A stretch of DNA of 64,000 nt from Verrucomicrobiota bacterium (lineage in GTDB: Bacteria > Verrucomicrobiota > Verrucomicrobiia > Chthoniobacterales > UBA6821): positions 3,576-67,575 of the forward strand of contig WBXH01000001.1 of assembly GCA_008933015.1 (NCBI GenBank), read 5' to 3'. The first letter of the stretch is position 1, and each line of letters opens with the position of its first letter. The position numbers were made by a program, and so were the translations under genes. Under the pieces are notes generated by a model that saw only the letters and a program-made list of their open reading frames with translations, made no database searches and was not told the DNA's origin. Below, one piece after another: positions 18,433 through 59,987 of this stretch.

Positions 18433-18457
18433 GGGGTTTTTTATGGGTGAGGTGAAT

Positions 18458-19654
18458 TTATTTGGGTGGAGCAACAAGTTTGATCCCGCGGCGAAGGAAT
18501 GTCGGAACATCAAGATCTTCGCCTTCGAAAATCGTGGGCTCGCTCTTGTCAAAACGACCACGCTGGTAAGAGTTCAGTTCAAGCACCCCTTGTGTTTGGT
18601 TGGTGGCAGAGGTTGATTTGACAGCGGGAGTTGTCTGCTTGGCCTTGTTAGCAATTTCTCTTTTAGGACGCATTTGCGTCGAAGTCACCGGGGAATCTTT
18701 GAGCACGACTCCCGAAAAATTATTTTCCTGCTCTGAAACTTCTGATTCATCGGTCGTGACAATGATGAAAATCTCAAGTTCTGAAGTTGAAAACGAATTC
18801 GCATCGACCCCCACTTTTATTTGACATTTTTTTCCTGCAATTCGTTCGATTTCCTCCACGGCAACTTGCATTTCAGCGAATGAAAGATCTTTGGGGCCTT
18901 TTAATAACAGCAGAATCATCCCAGCCTCGCTAATCACGGGGAGGCCCTCTTTCTTTTTCATCAGAGGGGAACGAAGCGCACGCTCAAGGGCTTCATGAAG
19001 ACGGTTACCCCCCTCTGACCGGCCATGTCCGAAATGCATCGGACTGGCTTTCCCCAATGCAAGGGCGAGATCACCGCGGGTGATCTTCATCGGACCGGTC
19101 GTGATTAGCATTCCCTGCACCGCTCTCACGGAAGAGTAAAGCAGGTCGTCTGAAAGTTGAAAAGCCGATCCCACCGAGGTTTGAGTGGGATCGGTTCCCG
19201 TAAGCCGATCGTTCTCGATGACCGCGACGGCATCACAGACACCCTGAAGTTTTTTTAAGGCAGAATTTGCCAGCTCCCTTTTCTGCTTTCCCTCAAATCC
19301 GAATGGGATGCCGACGCAGGCCAACGTGACCAATCCCATGGTCTTAGCACGAGCAGCCAGTAGCGGAATCATCAACGAAGCTGTGTCCCCTCCTAGTCCG
19401 GCACAGAATAGCACTGATGCGGATCCCTCAATGGCCTTTACAAAGTCATCCTCAATTGAAAGAAAGCCTTCCCTTACATCGCCGGGTGGCAGCGTCATCT
19501 TTTTCGTGACAATGGAGGCACCGAGGGATTCGGGATCATTATTTATAATTAGGGTGCCTGTCACACCTGGGTTTTCAATGTTCAGGCGATCCAGAATTCC
19601 GACTCCGGCGTTACCAACACCAATCAACATGCGCTGGCGAAGCTGACTTGTCAT
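18458..19654 (-). CDS. ftsZ: cell division protein FtsZ (divergent nucleotide-binding motifs)
   Basis: It occupies the terminal position of the dcw cluster after ftsA. FtsZ-fold blocks are present: [19 protein letters not shown], and SPLM...[15 protein letters not shown]. The C-terminal peptide is [11 protein letters not shown]. The G-box reads GGDTASL instead of GGGTGTG. Confidence 0.85.
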
Positions 19655-20880
19655 CGGGACCTCCTGCGGAAAATACCCCCGATTCCCTTTGTTAATTTCT
19701 CAAAAACGCTCTCTTCTGGAATATTTTCGCTAACGGCCATCGCGTACTTTGTCAGTCCTATTGCGGTGGAGAACTGGGGGTTTTCAAAGGTCTGTGTGGC
19801 ACCGCCAACTTCCTTCGCTCTGGTCAGGTGGGCTGGAAGTTCAAAAACATCCTCCGCTACCGTAGCAATGCCCCGTAGACGTGAACTACCCCCCGTAATC
19901 ATCACTCCTGCACGCAGCATTCCGATCATTCCCTCATGCGATCCCTCGATGTCTTTTCTGACAAGTTCAAAGATTTCATGCACACGCTGATGAATGATGA
20001 TTTGTAGAGAAGTCTTGCTGATATCGCATCCAAGGAAGCCAAGATCATTTTTAAGTGTAATCGTGCCTAGGTCGGCACCTCCGGGATCGATTGCTGAACC
20101 CTCTTGGATTTTCAACAGTTCAGAGCGTTGCATGGGCAACCTCAGTCCGATGGAAATATCATTCGTGATGTGATCCCCTCCAAGGGGAAGAACTCCGGAA
20201 TGTCGGACCGATCCGTTGTAATAGACAAGAAAATCAGTCGTCCCCCCACCGATATCAATCACAAGAGCGCCTAGATCCTTCTGATGCTGCGTCACTGCTA
20301 CCTGGGAGCTGGCGAGAGAACTCAAAACCACATCCTCAATGCCAAGTTTCAGCGATTCGATGCACCGGAGAGTGTTGTGAATTCTTGTCTTGATCCCATG
20401 TACAATATGAAAATCAGCTTCCAAGGTCTGGCACTCCATGCTGATGGGATCAATGACATCCCTTCTGCCATCCACATGGTACCCTTGAAGGATCGTGTGA
20501 AGAAAAATGTTCTGCGCAGGCAGGGAGACTTCTTTGGCATTGGTTTCAACGGTCTTCAGATCTTCCTCGATGATGACATCGCGTTCTTCGGGGAGCATGA
20601 ATGCACCACGGTTATTGAAGCTTTTCAGATGGGATCCGGAAATCGCCACCCACACGTTGCGTATCTCTACGTTCGTCTTCTCCTCGGCATCTATAAGGGC
20701 CTCGTGAATGCATTCGCTGACCGTTGTGAGATCCACGATCTCTCCTTTGCGAACACCACGGGAGGGTGTTTCACCAACACCCAGGATGCTAATTGTGCCG
20801 TCAGACCTTCCTTCCGAGACAATAACGCAGATTTTCGTCGTTCCAATTTCAAGACCTACAAAGATTTGATCTGAAGGCAT
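19651..20880 (-). CDS. ftsA: cell division protein FtsA
   Basis: 409 aa with an actin-like ATPase fold (GLEIGTTKICV and VIDIGGGTTDF) and a C-terminal amphipathic helix (FEKLTKGIGGIFRR). Its stop forms an ATGA overlap with the ftsZ start. Confidence 0.9.
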   Translation of the reverse strand: MPSDQIFVGLEIGTTKICVIVSEGRSDGTISILGVGETPSRGVRKGEIVDLTTVSECIHEALIDAEEKTNVEIRNVWVAISGSHLKSFNNRGAFMLPEERDVIIEEDLKTVETNAKEVSLPAQNIFLHTILQGYHVDGRRDVIDPISMECQTLEADFHIVHGIKTRIHNTLRCIESLKLGIEDVVLSSLASSQVAVTQHQKDLGALVIDIGGGTTDFLVYYNGSVRHSGVLPLGGDHITNDISIGLRLPMQRSELLKIQEGSAIDPGGADLGTITLKNDLGFLGCDISKTSLQIIIHQRVHEIFELVRKDIEGSHEGMIGMLRAGVMITGGSSRLRGIATVAEDVFELPAHLTRAKEVGGATQTFENPQFSTAIGLTKYAMAVSENIPEESVFEKLTKGIGGIFRRRSR

Positions 20881-20892: not shown

Positions 20893-21846
20893 TTACTTTT
20901 GAGTTCCCTTTTTCCCAGAATTTAACGGCATAATCTTAGCGCTCGTCTTCTCAGGTGTGAGTACAAAGGTCACGGGAGTGTTCCGCGCGATCATCAGATT
21001 GGCAGTTTCTAGGTGCCTCCCTGTTTCCTGACAGTGCTCCAGTAATTTTCTCAAACGTTCAATCTGCGAAGGGATGTCCTTTCTTCCAAAGGTGAATCTC
21101 GCATTTGAAGCATCGGTAACCACGACGGAGTAGGGTTTGGAAGCATCTATCGTGCGGATCTTGAATGTATCCTCTGGAATTTCAGAGAGAGCTTTCTGAA
21201 GGTGCAGAGCAAAATGAACACGTTCATTCTCCATGCGCTTGCCGGATACCGTATCGGACATATCAATTCCCTGGAGCGTCGGAAGGTTCAAAAACTCGGG
21301 ATTCAATCTTGTGGGTACGAACAAATATCCGTTTTCATCGCAGAGGAAACTCTTCCCGGGAATATAAGTGTCACCCTCGGCGTCCTCATTGTTTACTAGA
21401 ATTAGGAAGACCGGATGGCGGCGCTCTAAGTCAACCTTGATGGTATCAGGAAGAATGCGTTCAAGGTTCACAGAGAGAACCTCCGGATGAGCAGTCAGTT
21501 TCTTATTGGCCTGATCCAGATCGAGGAGAAAGAGATTTTGACCGTTGGTGAATCCTGTTGCCTGCACAAACTCCTCCATGTTCATGATGCCGTCAAAGTG
21601 AGCTTCAATGTGCTTGAGCGAGTATTCGCTGTTTTTAAAAAAGAATTTTTGAGCGGCTAACCTTCCAGCTCCGGCCAAAAGACACAAAATGATCACAGTT
21701 GAAAAAACCTTCCAGAGCAGATTCCCTGCCTTCTGGCGTCTTTGTCGTTTAAGACTAGCCGTGCGGACATTGAGCTCCATGAGGTGCTGCCGTCCCGGGG
21801 ATCTCCCCACTTTTCTGCGATTCAATCCGGAACGTTTTGTGTTCAT
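20893..21846 (-). CDS. ftsQ: cell division protein FtsQ (POTRA domain, bitopic)
   Basis: It sits between ddl and ftsA. It has a basic N-terminus, a single TM segment (VFSTVIILCLLAGAG), and a POTRA-like region. I chose the start at 21846 (MNTKRSG) because it forms an ATGA overlap with the ddl stop. Confidence 0.7.
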   Translation of the reverse strand: MNTKRSGLNRRKVGRSPGRQHLMELNVRTASLKRQRRQKAGNLLWKVFSTVIILCLLAGAGRLAAQKFFFKNSEYSLKHIEAHFDGIMNMEEFVQATGFTNGQNLFLLDLDQANKKLTAHPEVLSVNLERILPDTIKVDLERRHPVFLILVNNEDAEGDTYIPGKSFLCDENGYLFVPTRLNPEFLNLPTLQGIDMSDTVSGKRMENERVHFALHLQKALSEIPEDTFKIRTIDASKPYSVVVTDASNARFTFGRKDIPSQIERLRKLLEHCQETGRHLETANLMIARNTPVTFVLTPEKTSAKIMPLNSGKKGTQK

Positions 21847-22757
21847 ACGGGTTTGGCAAGCGATAGTGCAGCTATTCTGCAGCAAAGTGAGATAAAATCC
21901 AGTCCGACGAAGGCCGCAGCCTTAGGAAGAAGGCTCGTCTCCGTCATTCCGGGAATCGTATTGATTTCAAGGACCGTGGGGCCCGATTCTGCGAGGAGAA
22001 CATCAACGCGACAATAGACCTTCAATCCCAGCGCTCTGGTAGCAGCTAGAGCGACCTCTTGCACGCAAGATGTCTCGGAAGTCGTCAAGGGAGCGGGCAC
22101 CAGATACTGAGTCGCTCCTTTGGTGTACTTGTTGGTGTAATCATAAAAACCTTCATGGGGTTTTATTTCAACAACCGGTAACGCTTCGGTCCCTAAAATA
22201 CCGACCGTTAGTTCTCTCCCGGACACGAGTTCTTCCACAAGAATCTCCTCTCCATAAAGGAAGCAATCAGACATTGCTGGAGCAATTTTTTCACCGCTGT
22301 GAATCAAGTGCACCCCAACACTCGATCCCTGCTTTGGAGCTTTGATGACAATCGGTAAGGACAAGGAGGGCATTTCTCCCTTTCTTAAGATTTCCCAACG
22401 GGGTGTTGGAACTCCGTACTTTTCGAGTGCTTTTTTTGTAAGGATTTTGTCGAAAGCCAGACGGCTTTCTGCCGCCCCCTCGCCCGTGTAGGCAATGCCC
22501 ATAACGTCCAGAATCTGCTGCAAAGCCCCGTCTTCCCCGAATGTTCCGTGAATGAGATTAAATACTAATTCCGTCCCTTCCGGGATCAAAACATCGCAAT
22601 TTTCCACCTTGATCTCCCTCACCCTAGCCCCGGAAGAACGCAGCGCTGCCGATACTGCCGCACCCGAACGCATGGATACCTCGGCCTCGGCTCCCGGCCC
22701 ACCCATCAGGACTGTCAGATTGCGGTCACACGGATCATATGGCGAGAGTTTGCTCAT
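21843..22757 (-). CDS. ddl: D-alanine--D-alanine ligase
   Basis: 304 aa with an ATP-grasp fold (HG.FGEDG, KP...GSS.G, and the C-terminal NT.PGMT..S). Confidence 0.9.
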   Translation of the reverse strand: MSKLSPYDPCDRNLTVLMGGPGAEAEVSMRSGAAVSAALRSSGARVREIKVENCDVLIPEGTELVFNLIHGTFGEDGALQQILDVMGIAYTGEGAAESRLAFDKILTKKALEKYGVPTPRWEILRKGEMPSLSLPIVIKAPKQGSSVGVHLIHSGEKIAPAMSDCFLYGEEILVEELVSGRELTVGILGTEALPVVEIKPHEGFYDYTNKYTKGATQYLVPAPLTTSETSCVQEVALAATRALGLKVYCRVDVLLAESGPTVLEINTIPGMTETSLLPKAAAFVGLDFISLCCRIAALSLAKPV

Positions 22758-22769
22758 TTCAGGGGCATC

Positions 22770-25103
22770 TTATTCTGTTTGATCCAATCCAATGATACTG
22801 ACTTCTGTTTCCAAAAGAACCCCCCTCTTTTCAAGGGCCGCATCCCTTACCTGTTGGATGAGTCCGAGAATCTCGGAGGCTGTTGCATTGCCATCGTTAA
22901 CAATGAAATTGGCATGGATATCGGAGACACGAGCTCCTCCAAGGGAGTGATTTTTCAGTCCAAGTTCGTCTATGAGTCGACCGGCCGAGATACCTGAGGG
23001 ATTTTTGAACACGCAACCGGAACTTGCCGCTACAGGCTGGCTTTCTTTGCGATGCCTGAGTGAGGTGGCAAGAAGGTCGTCTATTGTCTCAGTGCTTGCT
23101 GGCACCCCGATCAAGGTTGCTGAGAGTGCAAAGTGATCCTTAAGCAGAGGAATGTCACGATATCGGACTTCCATCTCGGCCGGAGTACGTGAAATGATAT
23201 TTCCGTCGCTGTCGGAGAAACGAATGCTCTCCACTTGTTCAAAAGTCTGGACTCCCATTGCCCCGGCATTCATACGGAGGGCACCACCAAGATTTCCGGG
23301 AATCCCATCCATCCATTCGAATCCGGTCAGACCGGCATTGCGCGCTGTGGCGGCCAGTTGCTTCAGTTTCACACCAACACCAACTGTGATTTTATTTCCT
23401 AGGACGCGGCATTCGGAAAAACAACCACGGGCCAAATGAGCCACAACCCCGGGAAATCCTCCATCTCTCACGATCAGGTTGGATCCCCTGCCCATGACCA
23501 TGAAGGGAATATTTTCATCATGGCAGAAACGAACCAGCTCGGAAAATCCCTCCTCGGTCTCCGGTTCAACCCAGAACCGGGCAGGCCCCCCCACCCTCAT
23601 GGTGGTGTGCTTTGAAAGCGGTTCGGAAAAACGCAGGGAGCCTGATCCGACAACTTCCCGTAGTCGTGCTCCCAACTGTAGTTCTTCAGCCAAGTAGGAG
23701 GCCGCTTCATGAATATTCCCCGCTCCAAGAGTAAGAAGTAAATCTCCCTCTTTCAGACAGGCCGCAACCGCATTGGCACCCTTCTTTAAGGAACCAACAG
23801 TGGCGATTGAAGGATGTCCATCCGCTTTCGCAGCCATGACGATCGACCCGGCATCAGCCCCCTCAATCGGGTTCTCTCCCGCTGAATAAACGGGCGTGAC
23901 AAACACAACGTCCGCATCCCGGAAGGCCTTTCCGAATTGCTCCCGTAAGGCTGCGGTCCGAGTGAATCGGTGCGGCTGAAATAGAACAACCAATCTACCT
24001 TTTCCAGTGAGGCCTTTGCGGGCTGTGGCAAGCGTGGCCTGGATTTCTGTCGGGTGATGTCCATAGTCATCAAAAATCCTGTTTGAAGGATCGTGATACT
24101 TCAGTTCAAACCGACGTTTTGCTCCACGAAAAGATTCAAGAGCTGTTGCAATTGTCTCAAATTGAATTCCGAGATCACAAGCCAGAGCGATGACGAGCAT
24201 TGCATTGCTGGCGTTATGAGCTCCCGAAATACCCAACAGAACGCTGCCGAGTAACTCCTCTCCTTTAAAAACAGCGAAGCGGGTCACAAATCCGTTCTCC
24301 TCTAGCCCCTCGATCCTGTAACGGCATTGCTTACTGGTTCCCACAGGAATAGAGCGCTCGTGAGAAGAACAGACCCGGGAGGCTCCCTCGTCATCAGCCC
24401 AATAATAAACATTTCCGGAGGTCTGGCTGAGAAGTTGACCAAAGACCCTGTTAATCGCCTCAATATCTTCGTAATGATCGAGGTGTTCCGGTTCAATATT
24501 GAGCAGAAGCGCATGACTTGGATGGTAATGCACCAACGTTCCGTCGCTTTCATCCCCCTCCGCCACAAAATATTTACCTTCGGAAACCCATCTCGCATTC
24601 GTACCCAGAATTGGAATTTCGGCTCCCACATAATGGGACGGTTTCAATCCCCCTGCTCGTAGAACGTGAGCGGCCATAGCTGATGTGGTTGTTTTCCCAT
24701 GCATCCCACAGACAACGATCCCTTCTTTTCCGGACATCACTGCAGCAAGAATCTCGGCGCGTCGGGCTAACTTTTTACCAAGAGATAATGCTGTATCCAG
24801 GGCAGGATTTCCGGGATGGATCGCGGAGGAATAAATCACCAATTCTGCTAGCTCGACAAGCTTGGTACCGTGCGGAGTTTCAAATTCCAGTCCTTTGCGC
24901 CTCAGACGATCAATCTCAAGCGTTTCGACCTTGTCGGATCCCGTGACATGATGACCAAGGGCCAACAAGAGTGCCGCAATACCGCTCATTCCAGAACCTG
25001 CAACCCCGATAAGATGGATACGCCGGGGTTCATGCCCAAGCAAAAAAGAAGCCAGAGCCTCAGGTTCAGTAACGGCAGCATGCGAACCCGTAACAAGGCT
25101 CAT
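22770..25103 (-). CDS. murC-murB: bifunctional MurC-MurB fusion: UDP-N-acetylmuramate--L-alanine ligase (N-terminal) and UDP-N-acetylenolpyruvoylglucosamine reductase (C-terminal)
   Basis: 777 aa. Residues 1-~475 are MurC (GVAGSGMSGIA, GMHGKTTTS, DDYGHHPTE). Residues ~489-777 are MurB (HTTMRVGGPA, GRGSNLIVRDGG, and the C-terminal SGCVFKNP). Confidence 0.9.
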   Translation of the reverse strand: MSLVTGSHAAVTEPEALASFLLGHEPRRIHLIGVAGSGMSGIAALLLALGHHVTGSDKVETLEIDRLRRKGLEFETPHGTKLVELAELVIYSSAIHPGNPALDTALSLGKKLARRAEILAAVMSGKEGIVVCGMHGKTTTSAMAAHVLRAGGLKPSHYVGAEIPILGTNARWVSEGKYFVAEGDESDGTLVHYHPSHALLLNIEPEHLDHYEDIEAINRVFGQLLSQTSGNVYYWADDEGASRVCSSHERSIPVGTSKQCRYRIEGLEENGFVTRFAVFKGEELLGSVLLGISGAHNASNAMLVIALACDLGIQFETIATALESFRGAKRRFELKYHDPSNRIFDDYGHHPTEIQATLATARKGLTGKGRLVVLFQPHRFTRTAALREQFGKAFRDADVVFVTPVYSAGENPIEGADAGSIVMAAKADGHPSIATVGSLKKGANAVAACLKEGDLLLTLGAGNIHEAASYLAEELQLGARLREVVGSGSLRFSEPLSKHTTMRVGGPARFWVEPETEEGFSELVRFCHDENIPFMVMGRGSNLIVRDGGFPGVVAHLARGCFSECRVLGNKITVGVGVKLKQLAATARNAGLTGFEWMDGIPGNLGGALRMNAGAMGVQTFEQVESIRFSDSDGNIISRTPAEMEVRYRDIPLLKDHFALSATLIGVPASTETIDDLLATSLRHRKESQPVAASSGCVFKNPSGISAGRLIDELGLKNHSLGGARVSDIHANFIVNDGNATASEILGLIQQVRDAALEKRGVLLETEVSIIGLDQTE

Positions 25104-26203
25104 CTTCCTGCCTCCTCAAGGACATCGGCAACGCGCTCCGCAGCTCCACGAGGCAATATTCCTTGCGCTGCCTCGGCCATTCGTGACCTTCGTCTCTCGT
25201 CGTTGAGAAGATTTCTAATTAGAAGGGCGACAGCCTCCGGTTCTGTCGACTTCTCCTCAAGTATCTCCGCAGCATGGCAATTACGGAAGGCTTCCGCATT
25301 CCGGTGCTGGTGCTGATCGGCTGCGAATGGGAAGGGAATAAGGATGGATGGCAGGCCAAATTGAGAAATCTCGCTCAAACTTGCGGCTCCGGCTCTGGAG
25401 ACAACAAGATCCGCGGCAGAATAGACTTCGGCCATCCGGTGATGAAAAGGTGAAACGTGGGCCCTGATACCCTCCCGCTGATAATTGATGGCAGCAAGGT
25501 TGTCATCCCTGTCGCCCGTAAGATGAATGATCTGGATCGGTTCTCCCTTCAAAAATACTGCTGCTCGGAAAAGCAGTTGATTAATCCCTGCAGCTCCCTG
25601 ACTGCCTCCCATCACCAGCAGTGTGGGAAGATTTGGATCCAAGCCAAATGCGGTACGGGCTTCGTATTTCGATAGGGGGATACCCAAGTCTTTACGAACG
25701 GGCGTTCCAGTAATAATGCACTCCCTGCCTTGAAAGGATGCCTCGCAGTCTTGCAACCCCAAGAGGACCTTGTTCGTCCATCGGGCGGCAAGCTTGTTGG
25801 CCCTACCAGGGATTGCATTGGACTCGTGAAGGAAACAGGGAATCTTTCTCAGGTGAGCTGCAAGCAGTGGTGCTGCCGATGTGAACCCACCCATACCAAG
25901 GACAGCAGAGGGAAGATAACGTGAGTAAAGATGACTGCAGGTGGAAAAACTTTCCCAACTTCTCTTGATGAATCTTGCGAATGCCGGGGAGAGAATCGAG
26001 GGCATTCCTATGGACGGAAGTTTTTCACGTCTGAATTCGGGATGATCCCTTAGTGCGGTTGCATCAATCTCCTTTTCGGATACGAGCAGCATCACTCCAT
26101 GACCGCGTCCGTGAAGCGTCTCCGCAACGGCCAGACCGGGGAAAAGATGTCCTCCAGTTCCGCCGCAAGCGATAATGAATTGTTTGGGAACACCCATTCT
26201 CAA
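25100..26203 (-). CDS. murG: undecaprenyl-PP-MurNAc-pentapeptide GlcNAc transferase MurG
   Basis: 367 aa with GGTGGHLFP at the N-terminus and a GT28 C-terminal domain. Its stop forms an ATGA overlap with the murC-murB start. Confidence 0.9.
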   Translation of the reverse strand: MRMGVPKQFIIACGGTGGHLFPGLAVAETLHGRGHGVMLLVSEKEIDATALRDHPEFRREKLPSIGMPSILSPAFARFIKRSWESFSTCSHLYSRYLPSAVLGMGGFTSAAPLLAAHLRKIPCFLHESNAIPGRANKLAARWTNKVLLGLQDCEASFQGRECIITGTPVRKDLGIPLSKYEARTAFGLDPNLPTLLVMGGSQGAAGINQLLFRAAVFLKGEPIQIIHLTGDRDDNLAAINYQREGIRAHVSPFHHRMAEVYSAADLVVSRAGAASLSEISQFGLPSILIPFPFAADQHQHRNAEAFRNCHAAEILEEKSTEPEAVALLIRNLLNDERRRSRMAEAAQGILPRGAAERVADVLEEAGR

Positions 26204-26207
26204 AAGA

Positions 26208-27353
26208 TTAGATTCTCGGAACTGAACGCGCAGCCAGCACGATGTGGCGCTCTGGGAGAGGGGCGATCGGTATTCCTATGCGGTGAATATTGACGAGGAT
26301 TCCTACCATGAAAAGACATACGGCAAGGTTGCTGCCGCCGTAACTGATAAACGGCAAAGGCATTCCCTTGTTCGGAAGCAGTGAAGTGGTCATCCCTATA
26401 TTGACCGCTGCCTGAAGCGAGATCAATAGGATGATTCCCAGGGCAAGTAGTTTTCCAAAACGATCCTTTGCATTCGCGGCAATAAGGCCGGCGCAAAGGA
26501 TGATAAGAATGAATCCGAGAACGACAAGCCAGGTGAAGAGAAGTCCTAGTTCCTCGCCGATCATGGGAAAGATGAAGTCTGTGTGGGCGTACGGTAGATA
26601 AAGCAGTTTTTGGCGACCATTCCCCAGACCAAGTCCCTCGAATCCTCCGGAACCAAAGGCGATGAGGGCCTGCCACTGTTGAAGCCCCTTGCCCAATCTG
26701 TCCGCCTCCGGATGCAAGAAACTCATCATGCGGGCGGCGCGCTCTGGGATAAACATGGCTACTGAAAGCAAACCTGCCAATCCGGTACCGAAAAAACCTG
26801 CAATCAAGATCCAATTAGCGCCCCCTATAAAGCACATGAAAAGGGTTGTGGCACCGATGAGTGCGGCAGTGCCAAGATCGACCTCTTTTGCGATCAGTCC
26901 TATCAGAATGGCAACGATTCCAAAGGGGATCAAAAATCCCTGAAGAAATTTACGGGGATCCGTCTCCTGGCGGGAAAACCACCAAGCGACAAAAAATACT
27001 GCCGCAATCTTTGCAAGTTCACTTGGCTGGAACGGCATGAACAATAGTTTAACCCAGCGGTGGGAGCCGTTGATCTTCATTCCGATATGAGGAACGAAGC
27101 ACAGAACCAAAAGCACGGCGGAGACCCCGAACCAGATTTTCCATGTGCGTTGCCACAAATGATAATCGGTCAGGGCTCCAAGAATGCACACTCCAATTCC
27201 TATGATCAGCCAGAAGACATCCTTTTTGATAAAATAGTACATGTCGCCATGTGCCTCTTGGGCGTAGGCGCTGGTACTGAAGAGCATCACCAACCCGAGC
27301 GCAACTAATCCCACCACTGAGATCAGTAGAAGGTAGATGCTACAACGTTGCAT
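26208..27353 (-). CDS. ftsW: SEDS-family lipid II polymerase/flippase FtsW
   Basis: 381 aa, polytopic. SEDS motifs are present (QPSELAK, HTDFIF...EELG, LPNKGMPLPFISYGGS). Confidence 0.9.
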   Translation of the reverse strand: MQRCSIYLLLISVVGLVALGLVMLFSTSAYAQEAHGDMYYFIKKDVFWLIIGIGVCILGALTDYHLWQRTWKIWFGVSAVLLVLCFVPHIGMKINGSHRWVKLLFMPFQPSELAKIAAVFFVAWWFSRQETDPRKFLQGFLIPFGIVAILIGLIAKEVDLGTAALIGATTLFMCFIGGANWILIAGFFGTGLAGLLSVAMFIPERAARMMSFLHPEADRLGKGLQQWQALIAFGSGGFEGLGLGNGRQKLLYLPYAHTDFIFPMIGEELGLLFTWLVVLGFILIILCAGLIAANAKDRFGKLLALGIILLISLQAAVNIGMTTSLLPNKGMPLPFISYGGSNLAVCLFMVGILVNIHRIGIPIAPLPERHIVLAARSVPRI

Positions 27354-27374
27354 AGGGTTTTCCCGTGTGAATTT

Positions 27375-28376
27375 TTATTTCCCTCCCTTCTTAGAGGAAG
27401 GGGGTATTTTCAGCTTCTGACCGATTTGGATTTTCTTTGGATCAGTGATACCGTTGGCTTTAACAAGCTCATCCGGGGTAATTCTGAATTTTTTGGCTAT
27501 CTTGTAAGGACTATCCCCCTTTACAACGATATATTCTTTATCAAAGCTTTTTGTATCGGCAGCCTCAGCTTTAGCTACCGGTGAGCCCCCCTCAAGCTGA
27601 GCCGCAGGGACCTGATTCACGGACTGACTGACAGCAGGCTCAACTGATTCGACAATTTTCCCGGGCAACTTGAGTGATTGCCCCACTCTTAATACAGAGC
27701 TTTCAGTAAGCCCGTTTGCCTTCTCTAGGTCGGGAATAGTTACTCCCAGTGAGGCGGCGATTCGCGTCATCGTATCGCCCGACTTTACCGTATAGGGTTT
27801 TGTTGTATTCGTTAAAGGTGTAGAAACCTGCACTGCGTAATTAGTGGTTTTAGTTTCTTCACTATTCCCAGCAATACTTCCCGAAACAGAATTCTGGCTT
27901 TCACTAACAACAGGCGTGGCGGCGTGTAAATTTCCGGTAACAACACAAATTCCGGTGAGTCGCTGCATAGCAGACCTCGCATTAGCAATCAATCCACGAG
28001 GCTTAGTTGCTTCCTGATTCATGTTTGCCTTGGGAGCCTCCAATGTTTTTGCAACAATGGGCGTCTGTTTAAGCCGAGGAGGCTCGTTATCTGAATTTCC
28101 CCGCTTTGGTTCATTCTGACTTTTTTCCGGTGAGGAGGTGTCTCCATTAACTCCCGTCTTGGAGACCTTCACTGGTGAGCTTTTCCCAGCTTTCATCGAA
28201 TTGAATGCATAGAGGCCACCGACCGCGATGACGTGCAATAAAAGGACAACCATGAAAGCGTGGGATAGCTTCATGTTGGGCTCTGGGCCGTACTCCTCGT
28301 AGTCGGCTTCGTGTTGATTCATGACAGCGGCTCGCGCGCGTAGGCGTCGTGTGCGTTTTGGGATTTTCGGCATCAT
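27375..28376 (-). CDS. bitopic membrane protein with two C-terminal LysM peptidoglycan-binding domains
   Basis: 333 aa. It has a basic N-terminus (PKRTRRLRARA), one TM segment (FMVVLLLHVIAVGGLYAF), and a ~130-aa S/T/N/P-rich linker. Two LysM repeats follow (YTVKSGDTMTRIAASLGV...GQSLKLP and YIVVKGDSPYKIAKKFRI...GQKLKIP). Confidence 0.75.
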   Translation of the reverse strand: MMPKIPKRTRRLRARAAVMNQHEADYEEYGPEPNMKLSHAFMVVLLLHVIAVGGLYAFNSMKAGKSSPVKVSKTGVNGDTSSPEKSQNEPKRGNSDNEPPRLKQTPIVAKTLEAPKANMNQEATKPRGLIANARSAMQRLTGICVVTGNLHAATPVVSESQNSVSGSIAGNSEETKTTNYAVQVSTPLTNTTKPYTVKSGDTMTRIAASLGVTIPDLEKANGLTESSVLRVGQSLKLPGKIVESVEPAVSQSVNQVPAAQLEGGSPVAKAEAADTKSFDKEYIVVKGDSPYKIAKKFRITPDELVKANGITDPKKIQIGQKLKIPPSSKKGGK

Positions 28377-28427
28377 GTGTTTTGGTGTCTTGTTGGTGAT
28401 GTAGCTGATTATTGGTGTGTTAAAATA

Positions 28428-29795
28428 CTAGTACTCACTCAATTCGGGAGTTGATGATAATCGGTTGACCAGTGCCCTGAATGCTTCACCGCGTTCGATA
28501 TAATCGCGGAACATATCAAACGAAGAAGTTCCCGGTGAGAGCAGCACCGAACTACCTGAATCCGGATCGGCGATCCGCGAAGCAAGGAGAACAGCTTCCT
28601 CCATCGAATCGACGGTAGCGGATGGAACGGATGCCCACTCCTCGGAAATACGGTCCCGGATCTCACCGATCAAAATGGCAAAAGTTACACGCTCTTGAAC
28701 TAGCGGAGCGATCGGCGCAAACCCAAATCCCTTGTCCTTGCCACCAGCAATAAGGATGAGTGGTCCCTGAACAGATCGAATTGCCTGCTCCATGGCATCC
28801 AGGTTTGTTGCCTTTGAATCATTGATCCAGCGCACACCACGGTGTTCAGCGATAAGCTCGCATCGGTGAGCCGGTGTCTTGTAATTCCTAAGAACGCCAG
28901 TCAAGGTTGGGATTGTTGGTGTGATGCCCATGGCTCCTGCAAAGGCTGCCATCACATTGGCCGCATTGTGAGCACCTTTCATATTTGTCTCTTTCAGGTC
29001 GAGGATCATTATCCCCTTGTACAGGATCTCGGTGCCACGGAGCGTCAGGTCTGCGGAGCTCTCCTTTGTACTAAACGAGATCCTGCTGGCTTTTACCGAA
29101 GAAAATTCTTGTCCATGGGGTAGCACTGCGACGTCATCATGATGCTGGTTCTCAAAAATTCTCAGTTTTGCATCACGGTACTCCTTTAATGAGGGGTAAC
29201 GGTCGAGGTGGTTTGGACTCAAATTCAACCAGACTGCAACCTTGGGTCGGAATGTCCGAATCGTCTCCAGTTGGAAGGAACTCGTCTCGACAACCAAAGC
29301 GTCCCATACGTCACCCTTCAACAAGAGTTCTGACATAGGAGTGCCGATGTTTCCGCACGAGGATACATTGAGTCCTGCGCTCTCGAGTATCAGTGTGGTC
29401 AGTTCGGTCGTCGTAGTTTTCCCGTTACTACCAGTGATGGCAACAATAGGACAACTGCAAAGCGTGTAAGCCAACTCGAGTTCACCGATCAGAGGTATTC
29501 CCTTTGCTTTAATGTTTAGTACAAGTGCTGATTCTTCCTCTATTCCCGGGCTAATGATTGCCAACTCGTAACAGGCGGAGTCCTTCTCTGCATCTGGGCC
29601 TATCATCACATGAATGCCCTCCCTGCGAAGCGTCTCAGCTCGTTCTAAAAGATGGGGGCTATTCGAGCTATCATACACTGTCACAACCGCTCCACATTTC
29701 ATGAGGAGTCGAGCAGCGGCCATGCCGCTTCTTCCAAGTCCAAGCACACAGACTTTTTTTCCAAAATAGAAGCTGTTGCTTACGATGGGTGCCAT
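28428..29795 (-). CDS. murD: UDP-N-acetylmuramoylalanine--D-glutamate ligase
   Basis: 455 aa from the ATG at 29795 (MAPIVSN...VCVLGLGRSGMAAA), with GSNGKTTTT also present. The tracked upstream start at 29885 would overlap mraY by 88 nt. Confidence 0.9.
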   Translation of the reverse strand: MAPIVSNSFYFGKKVCVLGLGRSGMAAARLLMKCGAVVTVYDSSNSPHLLERAETLRREGIHVMIGPDAEKDSACYELAIISPGIEEESALVLNIKAKGIPLIGELELAYTLCSCPIVAITGSNGKTTTTELTTLILESAGLNVSSCGNIGTPMSELLLKGDVWDALVVETSSFQLETIRTFRPKVAVWLNLSPNHLDRYPSLKEYRDAKLRIFENQHHDDVAVLPHGQEFSSVKASRISFSTKESSADLTLRGTEILYKGIMILDLKETNMKGAHNAANVMAAFAGAMGITPTIPTLTGVLRNYKTPAHRCELIAEHRGVRWINDSKATNLDAMEQAIRSVQGPLILIAGGKDKGFGFAPIAPLVQERVTFAILIGEIRDRISEEWASVPSATVDSMEEAVLLASRIADPDSGSSVLLSPGTSSFDMFRDYIERGEAFRALVNRLSSTPELSEY

Positions 29796-29797
29796 TT

Positions 29798-30913
29798 TTA
29801 ACGCAGTTTGAGTGTGGCAAGACCTATAAATCCCAAAATAATTCCCATGATCCAGAAGCGGACCGTCACAGTACTCTCTTTCCAACCTGACAATTCAAAG
29901 TGGTGATGAAGCGGTGACATTTTGAAAATCCTTTTTCCAGTTAGCTTGAAGCTAGCAACCTGAAGGATGACTGATAATGCCTCGGCGACAAAAACGCCTC
30001 CTACCACCGCTAGGAGAAGCTCCTGTTTGCAACAGATGGCCAATATTCCGAGAAGGCCTCCGATGGCTAACGAACCGGTGTCTCCCATAAAAACTTTCGC
30101 GGGATGGCAATTCCACCAGAGAAATCCAAGTGATGCCCCTGCCAAGGCGAGACTCACCACAGCGAGTTCCCCTGAAAAATAGTAGTAGGGTATCTGCAAG
30201 TAGGTAGCAGCTTTGTAATTTCCGGCAAGATATGTAAAAACACCGAAGCAGATCCCTGTCATCACGGTGCATCCGGCTGCCAACCCGTCGAGCCCATCCG
30301 TTAAGTTCACGGCATTAGAAGAACCAACGATAATCAGAAGGTAGAAAAGATATGTCCAGAGCCCAAGATTGAGAACTGGTCCCTTCATAAAGGGGAGATA
30401 AAGTTCCTGAGCCTGCTTGGTGAGTGAGGGAGTCAGAAGAAAATAAGCGGTGATGCCTGCAGCAAGAAGGCATTGAACAAGAAACTTCAATCGACTGCTG
30501 ATGCCTATGGAGTTTTTTTTTCTTATTTTCAGCCAGTCGTCATAAAACCCCAATCCACCCAAGACTACCATCGTGACAAGCGCCAGCCAGACGAAGGGAT
30601 TGTCTGGACGTGCCCACAAAAATACGGAAACAAGCACGGCTCCTATCAAGAGGATGCCACCCATGGTCGGAGTTCCTTTCTTACTACCGTGCAGCTCATT
30701 CAGTCGATGAACCTCTTCAGCACTTCGTATCGGTTGTCCCAATTTGAGACTTACAAGCCCTCTGATCACCATCTCCCCAAAAAAAACACAGACCAAAAAC
30801 GCTGTGAGTCCGGCACCGAGCGCCCTGAAGGATATATATTGGAAGACATTCAACACCCTCGCTCCTCGAAACCAACCAAGGCAGTCCACAAAATGTGTGA
30901 GATAATAAAGCAT
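29798..30913 (-). CDS. mraY: phospho-N-acetylmuramoyl-pentapeptide transferase
   Basis: 371 aa, polytopic. It has the motifs KKGTPTMGG, NAVNLTDGLDGLA, GDTGSLAIGG and HHHFE. Confidence 0.95.
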   Translation of the reverse strand: MLYYLTHFVDCLGWFRGARVLNVFQYISFRALGAGLTAFLVCVFFGEMVIRGLVSLKLGQPIRSAEEVHRLNELHGSKKGTPTMGGILLIGAVLVSVFLWARPDNPFVWLALVTMVVLGGLGFYDDWLKIRKKNSIGISSRLKFLVQCLLAAGITAYFLLTPSLTKQAQELYLPFMKGPVLNLGLWTYLFYLLIIVGSSNAVNLTDGLDGLAAGCTVMTGICFGVFTYLAGNYKAATYLQIPYYYFSGELAVVSLALAGASLGFLWWNCHPAKVFMGDTGSLAIGGLLGILAICCKQELLLAVVGGVFVAEALSVILQVASFKLTGKRIFKMSPLHHHFELSGWKESTVTVRFWIMGIILGFIGLATLKLR

Positions 30914-33779: not shown

Positions 33780-33784
33780 GCTTA

Positions 33785-35527: not shown

Positions 35528-35928
35528 CTGTTCATGGTACGCGGGGACGCTTCAGTATCGAACCGGCTATCCGGATCGTGGGAAGCGGTGCGCAAAACCC
35601 CATCAGGTTCCGCCGGTTGAGCCGGTGTGATTCGGGCGATTGCTGTATCTCTGATGCCCTCAAGTTTCAGATAACCTTCCTCCAGTCGTCGCTGAAGCGC
35701 ACCACGCGAAGTCATACCGGTAATTTTAGCATCAAGTGATGCATTTAAAGCTTCCGCCTCTCTGAGTTCGCTTTCAATCCCCCGAGTTTGATCACCGATC
35801 GAATGTTGCTGATTTTTGAGATAAACGAAAAACAGTCCTGCCAATCCAATCATGAAAACGAGTACAAGCCATCTCGCCAGAAAGTTAACCTCTATGGTGT
35901 TGCTTGGTCGCCGGCGGTTCTGATTCAT
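35524..35928 (-). CDS. FtsL-like bitopic cell division protein
   Basis: 134 aa in the canonical ftsL slot between rsmH and ftsI. It has a short basic N-terminus, one TM segment, and then a coiled-coil-like segment. The call rests on position and architecture only. Confidence 0.55.
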   Translation of the reverse strand: MNQNRRRPSNTIEVNFLARWLVLVFMIGLAGLFFVYLKNQQHSIGDQTRGIESELREAEALNASLDAKITGMTSRGALQRRLEEGYLKLEGIRDTAIARITPAQPAEPDGVLRTASHDPDSRFDTEASPRTMNR

Positions 35929-36866: not shown

Positions 36867-36973
36867 GGTTTTAGGAATCCGGGAATTGGTCGGTGAAGCC
36901 AGATCGTGGTGCGCTCTATGAAATCTGTTCCTAAGGAGATTGAATGGGAGTCGCGTCATCTGGTCACGGTGGT

Positions 36974-37426
36974 CTAAAGCCCTATTAATTCAGCCACCTG
37001 GCGGTAAGAGTTGGATTCCTCAGCAGAAACCGCAGCCCAGCGTTTGGTATTCCAGATTTCAAAACGGCTGCGACCACCCACGAGGACGACCTCCCCCTCA
37101 AGCATCAGCAAATTACACTGCTCTTCGGGAAGTAAGATCCGCCCGTTACTGTCAGCCGATACGGCTCGGGCCTGACTGTAGAATTGGCGGATCGCTTTTC
37201 GTTGAACATCATTGGGAAGTCCGCTTGCCCTAATGCGCTCTTCCCAAGCATCGAATTCAAGGGGAGGCATGATCATCAGATACTCGCCGGAAGGTGCAGG
37301 AATCGCGTGAAATCCGCTCACACCGCCATTCAGCCAGGCGGCAGGAATGGTCACCCTCTTCTTCGAGTCCATGGACCTCTCGAAGGTACCCGCATAACTG
37401 ATTGAATTTGGAAGTGTTGTGGGCAT
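36974..37426 (-). CDS. mraZ: transcriptional regulator MraZ
   Basis: It has two SpoVT/AbrB-like halves with the DxxxR motifs (MDSKKRVTIP and ADSNGRILLP). I chose the ATG at 37426. The tracked GTG at 37453 lies inside the upstream GTGGN repeat array. Confidence 0.85.
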   Translation of the reverse strand: MPTTLPNSISYAGTFERSMDSKKRVTIPAAWLNGGVSGFHAIPAPSGEYLMIMPPLEFDAWEERIRASGLPNDVQRKAIRQFYSQARAVSADSNGRILLPEEQCNLLMLEGEVVLVGGRSRFEIWNTKRWAAVSAEESNSYRQVAELIGL

Positions 37427-37448
37427 GTATGAAACAGAGGGTGAATAA

Positions 37449-55188: not shown

Positions 55189-55201
55189 CTCGTGGAGACT
55201 A

Positions 55202-59911: not shown

Positions 59912-59987
59912 CAGTGGAATTGCATCATGCGGCTGCCCGGGATGAGAGGGCGCACACTTGCGTTCCTCTTACCGGAACTCACCTGAT

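What the first reader, a model, noticed from the sequence alone, without database searches (positions are those of the whole stretch)
18458..19654. The dcw-cluster FtsZ has degenerate GTP-binding and T7 motifs but an intact FtsA-binding tail
I aligned the translation by eye to E. coli FtsZ.
- The T1 loop GVGGGGGNAV reads [10 protein letters not shown] (about nt 19598-19621).
- The T3 GLGAGANPEVG segment has no counterpart.
- The tubulin signature GGGTGTG reads GGDTASL (about nt 19376-19402).
- The T7 synergy loop N-x-D-x-x-D reads K-x-T-x-x-D.
- The fold blocks [16 protein letters not shown] and SPLM are conserved.
- The extreme C-terminus keeps the canonical FtsA/ZipA-binding peptide ([11 protein letters not shown]).
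- The neighbouring ftsA looks fully canonical.

The only FtsZ visible in a complete division cluster therefore appears unable to bind or hydrolyse GTP in the standard way. It may use altered nucleotide chemistry, act as a slow or non-treadmilling scaffold, or depend on a second canonical paralog elsewhere in the genome.
Basis: partly seen in the sequence, partly recalled or inferred. Interest (0 to 1): 0.65.

Follow-up and report, generated by a model that had tools for sequence, protein, structure and literature searches.

The report
FtsZ missing its GTP-hydrolysis loops
The cell-division gene ftsZ of this freshwater verrucomicrobium, and of its whole clade, has lost or replaced the loops that normally hold and split GTP's last phosphate, yet it stays under purifying selection, so it offers a natural test of whether FtsZ-based division needs standard GTP hydrolysis.

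Summary
ORF 18458-19654 (-) is the positional ortholog of ftsZ, the last gene of a complete mraZ-to-ftsZ dcw cluster. It is coupled to ftsA by an ATGA overlap.

It has the FtsZ fold (AlphaFold core pLDDT >90; Foldseek E 1e-28) and the FtsA-binding tail. Profile-profile alignment shows:
- T1 reads GVGNAGV.
- A 9-residue deletion removes the T3 loop.
- T4 reads GGDTASL.
- T7 reads K-I-T-R-G-D.

This is not an error or a pseudogene. The identical protein occurs in three independent samples, and dN/dS of the globular domains is 0.10-0.14.

The state is lineage-wide. The deletion-bearing clade is monophyletic in an NJ tree, lies in Chthoniobacterales ("Spartobacteria") and nests among Verrucomicrobiota FtsZs that still have the T3 loop.

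Within the clade, the base and ribose contacts are invariant (Ec N165, F182, E138; Sa D187). Gamma-phosphate and catalytic positions are lost or free to vary (T3, G107, T108, R142, D209). The K+-site pair N207/Q47 is always basic/acidic.

Best reading, inferred only: a guanine-nucleotide-binding, FtsA-tethered filament scaffold with a rebuilt subunit interface and little or no canonical GTPase.

A second, canonical FtsZ elsewhere in the genome could not be tested.

The parts
18458..19654 (-). ftsZ ortholog, 398 aa: globular core residues ~5-301, disordered linker, conserved tail
   Evidence: Pfam Tubulin 48.8 bits and FtsZ_C 35.4 bits, both above gathering. TIGR00065 scores 120 bits against a cutoff of 295. 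AlphaFold mean pLDDT 80.7, core mostly >90. Foldseek top hits are all FtsZ, E 1e-28.
19592..19621 (-). T1 loop variant [10 protein letters not shown] (canonical GVGGGGGNAV)
   Evidence: hhalign. In the clade G14 and G17 are invariant and N15 is 66/67, while the Ec N24 position is variable.
19478..19492 (-). Site of the T3-loop deletion (residues L55-D59, a tight S3-H3 turn replacing ~14 residues)
   Evidence: 9-column gap opposite SGITKGLGA in hhalign. Strand 52-54 and helix 60-75 in the model. The deletion is shared by all 30 clade sequences.
19373..19393 (-). T4 'tubulin signature' variant GGDTASL (canonical GGGTGTG)
   Evidence: G107 is kept in 188/188 T3-bearing relatives but replaced in 28/30 T3-deleted ones. 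The T108 position is variable in the clade.
19529..19543 (-). T2/H2 segment NNDPE: D40 (Sa D46) kept; Sa Q48 position is E42
   Evidence: Position 42 is always acidic in 67 non-redundant clade members, E 47 and D 20. The role of Sa Q48 in locking K+ is from PMC8936486.
19277..19306 (-). T5 block [10 protein letters not shown] (ribose contact E121 kept; Ec R142 position is K125)
   Evidence: P117, F118, F120, E121 and G122 are invariant. Position 125 is variable: K 38, R 12, A 12.
19145..19219 (-). T6 IENDRL and H7 AFQLSDD: base/ribose contacts N148, F165, D169 retained
   Evidence: All three are invariant in 67/67 non-redundant clade members.
19070..19087 (-). T7 loop variant K-I-T-R-G-D (canonical N-x-D-F-x-D)
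   Evidence: Position 190 is always K or R, R193 is invariant, position 192 is never acidic, and D195 is 57/67.
18599..18751 (-). Disordered C-terminal linker (residues ~302-352)
   Evidence: pLDDT <50. dN/dS 0.45 against 0.10-0.14 in the domains.
18461..18598 (-). Conserved tail: Q[40 protein letters not shown], including the FtsA-binding peptide (18485-18517)
   Evidence: Near-invariant in the family. dN/dS 0.08. The motifs GRFDKSEP and PTFLRKGIK retrieved 418 species loci.
19651..20880 (-). ftsA (canonical); its TGA stop overlaps the ftsZ ATG (ATGA), and AGGAGG lies at 19660-19665
   Evidence: TIGR01174 329.8 bits. Sequence read.
20893..37453 (-). Rest of the dcw cluster: ftsQ, ddl, murC-murB fusion, murG, ftsW, LysM protein, murD, mraY, murF, murE, ftsI, rsmH, mraZ
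   Evidence: Pfam scans.

Best explanation
**What it is.** This is the vertically inherited division FtsZ of a Chthoniobacterales ('Spartobacteria') lineage. It keeps the two-domain FtsZ fold, the head-to-tail interface elements, the nucleoside half of the nucleotide pocket and the FtsA-binding tail. The canonical gamma-phosphate-sensing and hydrolysis apparatus has been dismantled.

**What was lost or changed**
- The T3 loop is deleted.
- T4 G107 and T108 are no longer constrained.
- The Ec R142 position is K or variable.
- T7 D209 is T.
- The K+-coordinating N207 is K or R.

**What replaced it.** The clade fixed a basic T7 loop ([KR]-I-[TN]-R-x-[DH]) together with an acidic residue at the Q47 position of helix H2.

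**How it most likely works (inferred).** The protein still binds a guanine nucleotide as a structural cofactor. It polymerises through a remodelled longitudinal interface in which T7 Lys/Arg of the upper subunit stand in for the K+ ion and the missing T3 loop, pairing with acidic H1/H2 residues and/or the phosphates of the lower subunit. It hydrolyses GTP slowly or not at all. It would then act as a more static, FtsA-tethered scaffold for the divisome rather than a fast treadmilling GTPase.

**Shown:** the sequence states, fold, orthology, selection and phylogenetic distribution.

**Inferred:** nucleotide binding, polymerisation, loss of GTPase activity and the salt-bridge or Arg/Lys-finger role.
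For: **Fold and family**
- AlphaFold core pLDDT is mostly >90.
- The 50 Foldseek matches listed, of 976 at E<=0.001, are all FtsZ, with the best E about 1e-28.
- hhalign to canonical FtsZ gives probability 100%.

**Orthology**
- The order ddl-ftsQ-ftsA-ftsZ holds wherever the upstream flank is held, in about 70 of the 83 loci, T3-bearing and T3-deleted alike. Elsewhere the flank is cut by a contig end.
- ftsA and ftsZ overlap by ATGA, preceded by an AGGAGG Shine-Dalgarno sequence.

**Derived state**
- In the NJ tree the T3-deleted sequences form one clade nested among T3-bearing Verrucomicrobiota FtsZs.
- The changes appear stepwise: Methylacidiphilum-like NLDFND/GGGTGTG, then HLGFDD, then Terrimicrobiaceae GVGNAGVH/GGGTASG/PIGLAD, then the T3 deletion.

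**Selection**
- dN/dS against L004 is 0.10 (N-domain), 0.14 (C-domain), 0.08 (tail) and 0.45 (linker).
- Neighbours score FtsA 0.04, ClpB 0.03, Ddl 0.10 and FtsQ 0.16.

**Split pattern of constraint in 67 non-redundant clade members**
- Invariant: N148, F165, D169, E121, G14, G17, G88 and R193.
- Position 190 is always basic and position 42 always acidic.
- Positions 90, 91, 125 and 19 are variable.
- By contrast, 188/188 T3-bearing relatives keep G107 and 181/188 keep R142.

**Published roles of the changed residues (SaFtsZ, PMC8936486)**
- N208 coordinates K+.
- Q48 locks K+ in place.
- D210 positions the catalytic water.
- G72 in T3 shapes the attack site.
- T7 faces helices H1 and H2 of the subunit below.
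- Q48A and R143K each give stabilised polymers with about 6-fold lower GTPase activity.
Against: - No biochemical, structural-complex or expression data exist for any clade member.
- In SaFtsZ the single changes N208L and D210N abolish assembly altogether, so continued polymerisation requires compensation that is only hypothesised here.
- The co-occurrence of the T3 deletion, basic T7 and acidic position 47 is a single phylogenetic event, not independent coevolution.
- D195 (Ec D212) is kept in 57/67 members, so some hydrolysis chemistry may survive.
- The invariant pocket residues could be conserved for structural reasons rather than for ligand binding.
- No model coordinates were available, so no pocket or interface geometry was checked.
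- A canonical second FtsZ elsewhere in the genome is not excluded.
Confidence: 0.5

Rival explanations
1. **Rebuilt but active GTPase.** The clade swapped the K+/Asp-based catalytic centre for a Lys/Arg-finger type. Invariant R193 and K/R190 from T7 reach the phosphates of the subunit below, through the space vacated by T3. D195 still activates water, so GTP-driven dynamics persist by different chemistry.
For: - R193 is invariant, position 190 is always basic and D195 is kept in 57/67 members.
- The nucleoside contacts and the T1 and T4 glycines are invariant.
- In other GTPases, K+ and the arginine finger are interchangeable ways of supplying the activating charge, as discussed in PMC8936486.
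Against: - The residue that positions the catalytic water (Sa D210) is never acidic in the clade.
- The in-cis Arg (Sa R143) and T108 are released from constraint, and in the Chthoniobacter-like subclade D212 is H. This pattern looks like relaxation of phosphate chemistry rather than its redesign.
- The FtsZ core evolves about 3 times less constrained than FtsA.
Confidence: 0.2
2. **Non-catalytic partner of a second FtsZ.** The dcw copy is a specialised subunit (membrane tether, cap or co-polymer partner) that works with a canonical FtsZ or tubulin encoded elsewhere. The analogy is alpha/beta-tubulin or plant FtsZ1/FtsZ2.
For: - Whole genomes could not be searched, so a paralog is not excluded.
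- A T7 loop that cannot catalyse, paired with an intact nucleotide pocket, resembles beta-tubulin (own knowledge).
Against: - No second Tubulin/FtsZ domain was found in the window ORFs of >=150 aa that were scanned. The last, 61091-62299, was not scanned.
- Among the 80 species loci retrieved through the phylum-wide tail motif, no assembly contributes both a T3-deleted and a T3-bearing FtsZ.
- The gene sits at the ortholog's position and keeps the FtsA tail.
- Its own bottom face (T3, T4) is altered as well, not only T7.
Confidence: 0.12
3. **Relic on the way to loss.** Division in this clade has become largely FtsZ-independent, as in Planctomycetota and Chlamydiota. On this view the gene is a decaying or moonlighting remnant.
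For: - The PVC superphylum has lost FtsZ twice (PMC5147048, PMC12283558).
- Verrucomicrobiota FtsZs show graded motif erosion.
- FtsZ diverges faster than FtsA: 79% against 97% identity to L004.
Against: - dN/dS is 0.10-0.14 in both domains and 0.08 in the tail.
- Dozens of positions are invariant across sequences only 38-50% identical, including newly fixed residues (R193, N15).
- The FtsA-binding peptide, the translational coupling and the complete dcw cluster are all intact.
Confidence: 0.1
4. **Changed ligand.** The pocket now binds a different nucleotide or dinucleotide. T1 reads G-x-G-x-x-G, the Rossmann-type motif.
For: T1 GVGNAG matches GxGxxG, and the phosphate loops are altered.
Against: - The guanine-specific Asp (Sa D187 position), the stacking Phe and T6 Asn are invariant.
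- The same GNAG T1 occurs in Terrimicrobiaceae FtsZs that keep T3 and GGGTASG.
Confidence: 0.05

Closest known systems
Canonical bacterial FtsZ (E. coli, S. aureus, B. subtilis; TIGR00065)
   Same: - Same two-domain fold (Foldseek E 1e-28, TM to target 0.73-0.80).
- Same position after ftsA in the dcw cluster.
- Same C-terminal FtsA-binding peptide.
- Same T2 N-x-D, T5 PFxFEG, T6 N, and H7 F and D.
   Different: - The T3 loop is deleted.
- T4 reads GGDTASL.
- T1 reads GNAGV.
- T7 reads KITRGD.
- Q47 is E and R142 is K.
- It scores 120 bits against the TIGR00065 cutoff of 295.
- Only 28% identity to E. coli in the N-domain, against 46% for the Methylacidiphilum sp. MAG FtsZ L051.
Verrucomicrobium spinosum FtsZ (Yee et al. 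2007, PMC1845146; Henriques et al. 2025, PMC12283558)
   Same: - Same phylum.
- Located in the dcw cluster.
- Described as among the most divergent bacterial FtsZs.
- The murC-murB fusion is also present nearby.
   Different: - V. spinosum FtsZ keeps the tubulin signature GGGTGSG.
- It is experimentally essential.
- The window protein has lost the signature and the T3 loop.
- Neither paper describes motif loss in Spartobacteria.
Engineered interface and catalytic mutants of FtsZ (SaFtsZ Q48A, R143K, N208L, D210N in PMC8936486; E. coli ftsZ84 G105S, D212G, D209A from own knowledge)
   Same: - The same positions are altered.
- Q48A and R143K give stabilised, slowly hydrolysing polymers. That is the behaviour proposed here.
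   Different: - Here at least five such changes plus a loop deletion coexist naturally and are fixed under purifying selection.
- In SaFtsZ, N208L or D210N alone abolish assembly.
Beta-tubulin T7 (Lys254) and the non-hydrolysed N-site GTP of alpha-tubulin (own knowledge)
   Same: A tubulin-superfamily member whose T7 loop carries a basic residue instead of the catalytic acid, so the nucleotide at that interface is structural rather than hydrolysed.
   Different: - Tubulin does this in an obligate heterodimer with a catalytic partner.
- In tubulin the changed residue is the D212/E254 equivalent, which the window protein keeps.
- No partner is known here.
FtsZ-like families FtsZl-1 and FtsZl-2 (Makarova & Koonin 2010, PMC2875224)
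   Same: [quoted passage not shown]
   Different: - Those families were found through their intact GGGTG(S/T)G loop.
- From my own knowledge, they lie outside the dcw cluster.
- The window protein is the dcw ortholog and lacks that loop.

Membership tests
FtsZ (cell-division tubulin homolog) | Two-domain FtsZ fold: N-terminal Rossmann-like nucleotide-binding domain, helix H7, C-terminal domain | tested here: met
   AlphaFold2 core pLDDT mostly >90. The 50 Foldseek PDB matches listed (of 976 at E<=0.001) are all FtsZ, best E about 1e-28, TM to target 0.73-0.80.
FtsZ (cell-division tubulin homolog) | Pfam PF00091 (Tubulin/FtsZ GTPase) and PF12327 (FtsZ_C) above gathering score | tested here: met
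   48.8 bits against 33, and 35.4 bits against 27. The Tubulin match covers only HMM positions 93-186.
FtsZ (cell-division tubulin homolog) | NCBIfam TIGR00065 equivalog cutoff | tested here: not met
   120 bits against a cutoff of 295.2. All 9 NCBI-named clade members are labelled 'hypothetical protein'.
FtsZ (cell-division tubulin homolog) | Tubulin signature motif GGGTG[ST]G in T4 | tested here: not met
   GGDTASL. The clade consensus is GGETGSF.
FtsZ (cell-division tubulin homolog) | T3 loop (GLGAGxxP) contacting the gamma-phosphate | tested here: not met
   9-column deletion in the profile-profile alignment, shared by the whole clade.
FtsZ (cell-division tubulin homolog) | T7 synergy loop N-x-D-x-x-D | tested here: not met
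   K-I-T-R-G-D. Only the last Asp is kept.
FtsZ (cell-division tubulin homolog) | Gene located directly downstream of ftsA in the dcw cluster | tested here: met
   ftsQ-ftsA-ftsZ with an ATGA overlap. The same order holds in about 70 of the 83 loci, wherever the upstream flank is held.
FtsZ (cell-division tubulin homolog) | Conserved C-terminal peptide that binds FtsA/ZipA (D-[IL]-D-[IV]-P-x-F-L-R) | tested here: met
   [11 protein letters not shown] at residues 380-390, near-invariant in the family. Short helix 385-388 in the model.
FtsZ (cell-division tubulin homolog) | GTP binding, GTP-dependent polymerisation and GTPase activity | not testable with these tools
   Needs purified protein. 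Sequence suggests the nucleoside contacts are kept and the catalytic residues lost.
Pseudo-GTPase / non-catalytic tubulin-superfamily subunit (works-like comparison) | Fold retained while catalytic residues are substituted, under purifying selection | tested here: met
   Sa D210 equivalent is T, N208 is K, the T3 loop containing G72 is deleted, R143 is K (roles from PMC8936486). dN/dS 0.10-0.14.
Pseudo-GTPase / non-catalytic tubulin-superfamily subunit (works-like comparison) | Demonstrated absence of hydrolysis | not testable with these tools
   No biochemical data are available.
FtsZl-1 / FtsZl-2 (Makarova & Koonin 2010) | Intact GGGTG(S/T)G loop; the non-dcw genomic context of these families is from my own knowledge | tested here: not met
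   The signature is absent, and the gene is the dcw ortholog.

The most novel reading that the evidence does not exclude
An abundant free-living bacterial clade divides with an FtsZ that has abandoned the universal K+/Mg2+/Asp hydrolysis centre. Two readings are possible.
- The filament is held together by built-in T7 Lys/Arg to H1/H2 Asp/Glu contacts around a structural guanine nucleotide. That would be hydrolysis-independent and non-treadmilling, and would show that treadmilling is not universally required for FtsZ-based cytokinesis.
- T7 supplies a trans Arg/Lys finger. That would be a catalytic solution not yet described in the tubulin/FtsZ superfamily.

On either reading, the graded series across Verrucomicrobiota would record intermediate steps on the road to the FtsZ-less division of Planctomycetota and Chlamydiota.
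Probability: 0.3. Interest if true: 0.8.

Novelty: new variant of a known kind. Interest (0 to 1): 0.6.

Why it matters
**The open question.** FtsZ's GTPase-driven treadmilling is widely treated as the organising principle of bacterial cytokinesis, and its catalytic residues are described as conserved across species (PMC8936486).

**What this clade offers.** The orthologous, dcw-encoded, FtsA-coupled FtsZ has lost the T3 loop, the signature glycine, the water-positioning Asp and the K+ ligand. It remains under purifying selection. The clade is widespread in lakes and soils.

That makes a long-standing question directly testable with one recombinant protein: how much of FtsZ function needs hydrolysis, and how much needs only scaffolding?

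**Evolutionary context.** The clade lies in the PVC superphylum, where FtsZ was lost twice. The stepwise erosion seen across Verrucomicrobiota may therefore show how a lineage becomes independent of FtsZ dynamics.

**Practical consequence.** NCBI's pipeline labels these proteins 'hypothetical', so automated surveys could wrongly score these genomes as FtsZ-less.

Tried and rejected
**Artefact or misalignment: rejected.** phmmer to PDB chains, MAFFT and hhalign all agree. The identical protein occurs in three samples.

**Pseudogene: rejected.** The reading frame is intact, dN/dS is 0.10-0.14, and there are many invariant positions.

**G107 to D/E as a conserved 'phosphate mimic': rejected.** The position varies within the clade (E, D, G, A, T, R, S, V), so it is released from constraint rather than newly constrained.

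**T7 change alone as the unusual feature: rejected.** Most T3-bearing relatives in the set (Verrucomicrobiota loci plus unnamed cluster representatives) also lack N207 and D209, for example IRIGMDDL. The clade-specific novelties are the T3 deletion, loss of G107 and R142, and the basic T7 with acidic position 47.

**Prior description in the literature: not settled.**
- Pilhofer et al. 2008 (J Bacteriol 190:3192, PMC2347405) analysed verrucomicrobial FtsZ, including subdivision 2. It is not held in the library, so I could not check whether it already noted these substitutions.
- Six full-text searches found no motif-level description.

**Link to cultured Chthoniobacter flavus: not established.** A protein search with a 'Chthoniobacter sp.' MAG FtsZ returned no named C. 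flavus entry. Cluster look-up gave no useful names.

**Pocket superposition on GDP-bound FtsZ: not possible.** The structure tool returns no coordinates.
Full report
**1. What is at the coordinates**

ORF 18458-19654 on the minus strand encodes a 398-aa protein.
- It passes the Pfam gathering scores for Tubulin/FtsZ (48.8 bits) and FtsZ_C (35.4 bits). The Tubulin match covers only HMM positions 93-186.
- It scores 120 bits against NCBIfam TIGR00065, whose cutoff is 295.
- phmmer against PDB sequences finds only FtsZ chains, the best at E 1.5e-26.

The gene is the last member of a complete dcw cluster: mraZ, rsmH, ftsI, murE, murF, mraY, murD, a LysM protein, ftsW, murG, a murC-murB fusion, ddl, ftsQ, ftsA, ftsZ. 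Its ATG overlaps the ftsA stop codon (ATGA) and follows an AGGAGG Shine-Dalgarno sequence. The neighbouring ftsA is canonical, with TIGR01174 at 329.8 bits.

**2.

A profile-profile alignment of 119 family members against 13 canonical or near-canonical FtsZs gave probability 100% and E 8e-65. It pairs:

| Element | Query | E. coli |
|---|---|---|
| T1 | GVGNAGV | GVGGGGG |
| T3 | 9-column gap | SGITKGLGA |
| T4 | GGDTASL | GGGTGTG |
| T7 | KITRGD | NVDFAD |

The blocks [16 protein letters not shown] and SPLM, and the tail [11 protein letters not shown], are present. The refutation condition, motifs conserved at shifted positions, is not met.

The identical protein is encoded on contigs from three independent samples, so this is not an assembly error.

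**3. It is a folded FtsZ**

AlphaFold2 with the family alignment gives mean pLDDT 80.7. The core, residues 5-300, is mostly above 90, and residues 304-370 form a disordered linker. The connection between strand S3 (52-54) and helix H3 (60-75) is a 5-residue turn where canonical FtsZ has the T3 loop.

Foldseek against the PDB returns FtsZ in all 50 listed matches, from S. aureus, M. tuberculosis, E. coli and B. subtilis among others. The best E-values are about 1e-28, and TM-scores to the target are 0.73-0.80.

**4. It is lineage-wide and derived**

The protein search found hundreds of 46-80% identical relatives from Verrucomicrobiota/Chthoniobacterales metagenome bins. A scan of one genome per species retrieved 418 loci through the tail motifs GRFDKSEP and PTFLRKGIK, and 80 were kept.

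Tabulating the motifs and building an NJ tree shows a graded series:

| Group | T1 | T3 | T4 | T7 |
|---|---|---|---|---|
| Methylacidiphilum-like | GVGGAGCN | GLGAGGDP | GGGTGTG | NLDFND |
| A lichen-associated Chthoniobacterales group | not noted | present | not noted | HLGFDD |
| Terrimicrobiaceae | GVGNAGVH | present | GGGTASG | PIGLAD |
| T3-deleted clade | GVGNAGV | deleted | GG[EDx]TxS | [KR]-I-[TN]-R-x-[DH] |

The T3-deleted group is a single clade. It comprises 'Chthoniobacter sp.' MAGs and the freshwater 'Spartobacteria' group that contains the query.

Limisphaerales-type FtsZs are non-canonical in other ways: GGGAGSG, QIHFDD, and a T6 reading LPSQK.

The order ddl-ftsQ-ftsA-ftsZ holds wherever the upstream flank is held (about 70 of the 83 loci), so these are positional orthologs.

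An exhaustive HMMER search of 1.84 billion cluster representatives returned 9,424 hits at E<=0.001. Among the 150 best, only the clusters nearest the query carry the T3 deletion: P0060, P0121, P0122, P0123, P0145 and two C-terminal fragments. Lower-ranked hits were not inspected, so I do not claim that the deletion is unique worldwide.

**5. Selection**

Nei-Gojobori dN/dS against the 79%-identical ortholog L004:

| Region or gene | dN/dS |
|---|---|
| FtsZ N-domain | 0.10 |
| FtsZ H7 + C-domain | 0.14 |
| FtsZ tail | 0.08 |
| FtsZ linker | 0.45 |
| FtsA | 0.04 |
| ClpB | 0.03 |
| Ddl | 0.10 |
| FtsQ | 0.16 |

The gene is therefore under clear purifying selection and is not a pseudogene. It is about three times less constrained than FtsA. 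FtsZ diverges faster than FtsA throughout the clade, for example 79% against 97% identity, and about 50% against about 70%. From my own knowledge, this reverses the usual ranking.

The N-domain has lost its usual extra conservation. It is 28% identical to E. coli FtsZ, against 46% for the Methylacidiphilum sp. MAG FtsZ L051.

**6. A split pattern of constraint inside the clade**

I examined 67 members made non-redundant at 80% identity.

*Invariant or nearly so:*
- T1: G14, N15 (66/67), G17.
- T2: N38, D40 (66/67).
- T4: G88, G89 (66/67), S93 (64/67).
- T5: P117, F118, F120, E121 and G122.
- T6: N148 (Ec N165).
- H7: F165 (Ec F182) and D169 (the Sa D187 position).
- T7: G187 and R193 (the Ec F210 position).
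- Position 190 (Ec N207) is always K or R.
- Position 42 (Ec Q47) is always E or D.

*Variable:* positions 90 (G107), 91 (T108), 125 (R142) and 19 (N24).

By contrast, 188/188 T3-bearing relatives keep G107 and 181/188 keep R142.

From established structural knowledge, the retained residues contact the base and ribose. The lost residues handle the gamma-phosphate and catalysis.

**7. Published roles of the changed residues**

Ruiz et al. 2022 (PMC8936486) identify Sa D46, Q48, R143, N208, D210 and D213 as key.
- D210 swings to position the catalytic water.
- D213 and the T3 residue G72 shape the attack site.
- R143 supplies an activating charge.
- N208 coordinates a K+ ion in T7, and Q48 of the subunit below locks it in place.
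- T7 faces helices H1 and H2 of the subunit below.
- N208L and D210N abolish assembly.
- Q48A and R143K give stabilised filaments with about 6-fold lower GTPase activity.

The query has D40 (kept), E42, K125, K190, T192 and D195 (kept), and G72's loop is absent.

**8. Most likely mechanism (inference)**

The protein still binds a guanine nucleotide, because the nucleoside half of the pocket is invariant. It cannot run the canonical hydrolysis cycle.

The clade-wide pairing of a basic T7 with acidic H1/H2 residues suggests a remodelled longitudinal interface. The residues concerned are K/R190 and R193 in T7, and D22, D40 and E/D42 in H1/H2. The Lys/Arg side chains would take the place of the K+ ion and fill the space left by T3. 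The result would be a more static, FtsA-tethered scaffold. I give this about 0.5.

Rivals:
- A rebuilt, still-active site using a trans Arg/Lys finger with D195 (about 0.2).
- A non-catalytic partner of an undetected second FtsZ (about 0.12).
- A relic in a lineage becoming FtsZ-independent (about 0.1; contradicted by the selection data).
- A changed ligand (about 0.05; contradicted by the invariant guanine-specific Asp).

The co-occurring changes are a single phylogenetic event, so they are not statistical coevolution.

**9. Second paralog**
- No other Tubulin/FtsZ domain occurs in any of the window ORFs of >=150 aa that were scanned; the last, 61091-62299, was not scanned.
- Among the 80 loci, no assembly contributes both a T3-deleted and a T3-bearing FtsZ.
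- This is weak evidence. Whole genomes were not searchable.

**10. Comparison with the literature**
- V. spinosum FtsZ keeps GGGTGSG and was called canonical but divergent (PMC1845146). It is essential (PMC12283558).
- Verrucomicrobiota FtsZ is noted as among the most divergent in FtsZ phylogenies (PMC9871819).
- None of these papers, nor six full-text searches, describes loss of T3, the signature motif or the T7 acids in Spartobacteria.
- Pilhofer et al. 2008, which analysed subdivision-2 FtsZ, could not be read. Partial prior description is therefore possible.
- All nine NCBI-named clade members are labelled 'hypothetical protein', whereas JGI calls them FtsZ.

**11. Verdict**

It includes the changes at the K+ site, R142 and Q47, and it affects a whole clade. 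'Cannot hydrolyse GTP in the standard way' is well supported by inference. 'Cannot bind GTP' is not supported. This is a new variant of a known kind, of moderately high interest, and every functional statement awaits biochemistry.

Noticed in passing
window 8811-14423 (+): A 1870-aa UvrA-like ORF, about twice the length of normal UvrA. It has two UvrA interaction-domain hits and several ABC/AAA P-loop modules, which suggests a tandem-duplicated or fused UvrA (also called as one gene in L001).
   Followed up: no
window 22770-25103 (-): A murC-murB fusion gene of 777 aa (Mur ligase domains plus FAD_binding_4 and MurB_C) inside the dcw cluster. The same fusion is reported and essential in Verrucomicrobium spinosum (PMC12283558).
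   Followed up: partly
window 27375-28376 (-): A LysM-domain protein of 333 aa, with two LysM repeats at its C-terminus, is inserted between murD and ftsW in the dcw cluster.
   Followed up: no
window 18461-18598 (-); loci L004-L083: The FtsZ tail is conserved over about 45 residues, far more than the usual ~10-residue FtsA-binding peptide: Q[40 protein letters not shown]. The RFDKSEPT block recurs in all 83 loci and in the near-canonical representatives of alignment A3. It may be a second partner-binding site. Henriques et al. 2025 found the V. spinosum C-terminal extension essential.
   Followed up: partly
loci L061-L083 (Limisphaerales-type) and representatives P0124-P0269: Many other FtsZs among the relatives also depart from the textbook motifs.
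- T7 commonly reads x-I-G-[MFL]-D-D or Q-I-H-F-D-D, with no N207 or D209.
- The Limisphaerales type has T4 GGGAGSG (T108 to A) and T6 LPSQK.
- Several are 600-915 aa long.

Erosion of the catalytic motifs therefore extends well beyond the query clade.
   Followed up: partly
proteins P0040, P0050, P0094, P0114, P0284, P0291, P0292, P0293, P0305: NCBI annotation names every one of these dcw-cluster FtsZ orthologs 'hypothetical protein', while JGI names them FtsZ. Automated presence/absence surveys could mis-score these genomes as lacking FtsZ.
   Followed up: partly
window 15862-18561 (-) vs 18458-19654 (-): The mechanical ORF list extends clpB to a GTG at 18561, overlapping the ftsZ 3' end by about 100 nt. 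Gene calls on the source contigs start ClpB (856 aa) at window ~18432, 25 nt after the ftsZ stop, so there is no real overlap.
   Followed up: yes
window 53389-60977 (-): A Bat/MoxR-type operon: MoxR AAA+ ATPase, DUF58, two VWA proteins (one with TPR) and BatD. It is an ordinary housekeeping context, unrelated to the finding.
   Followed up: no
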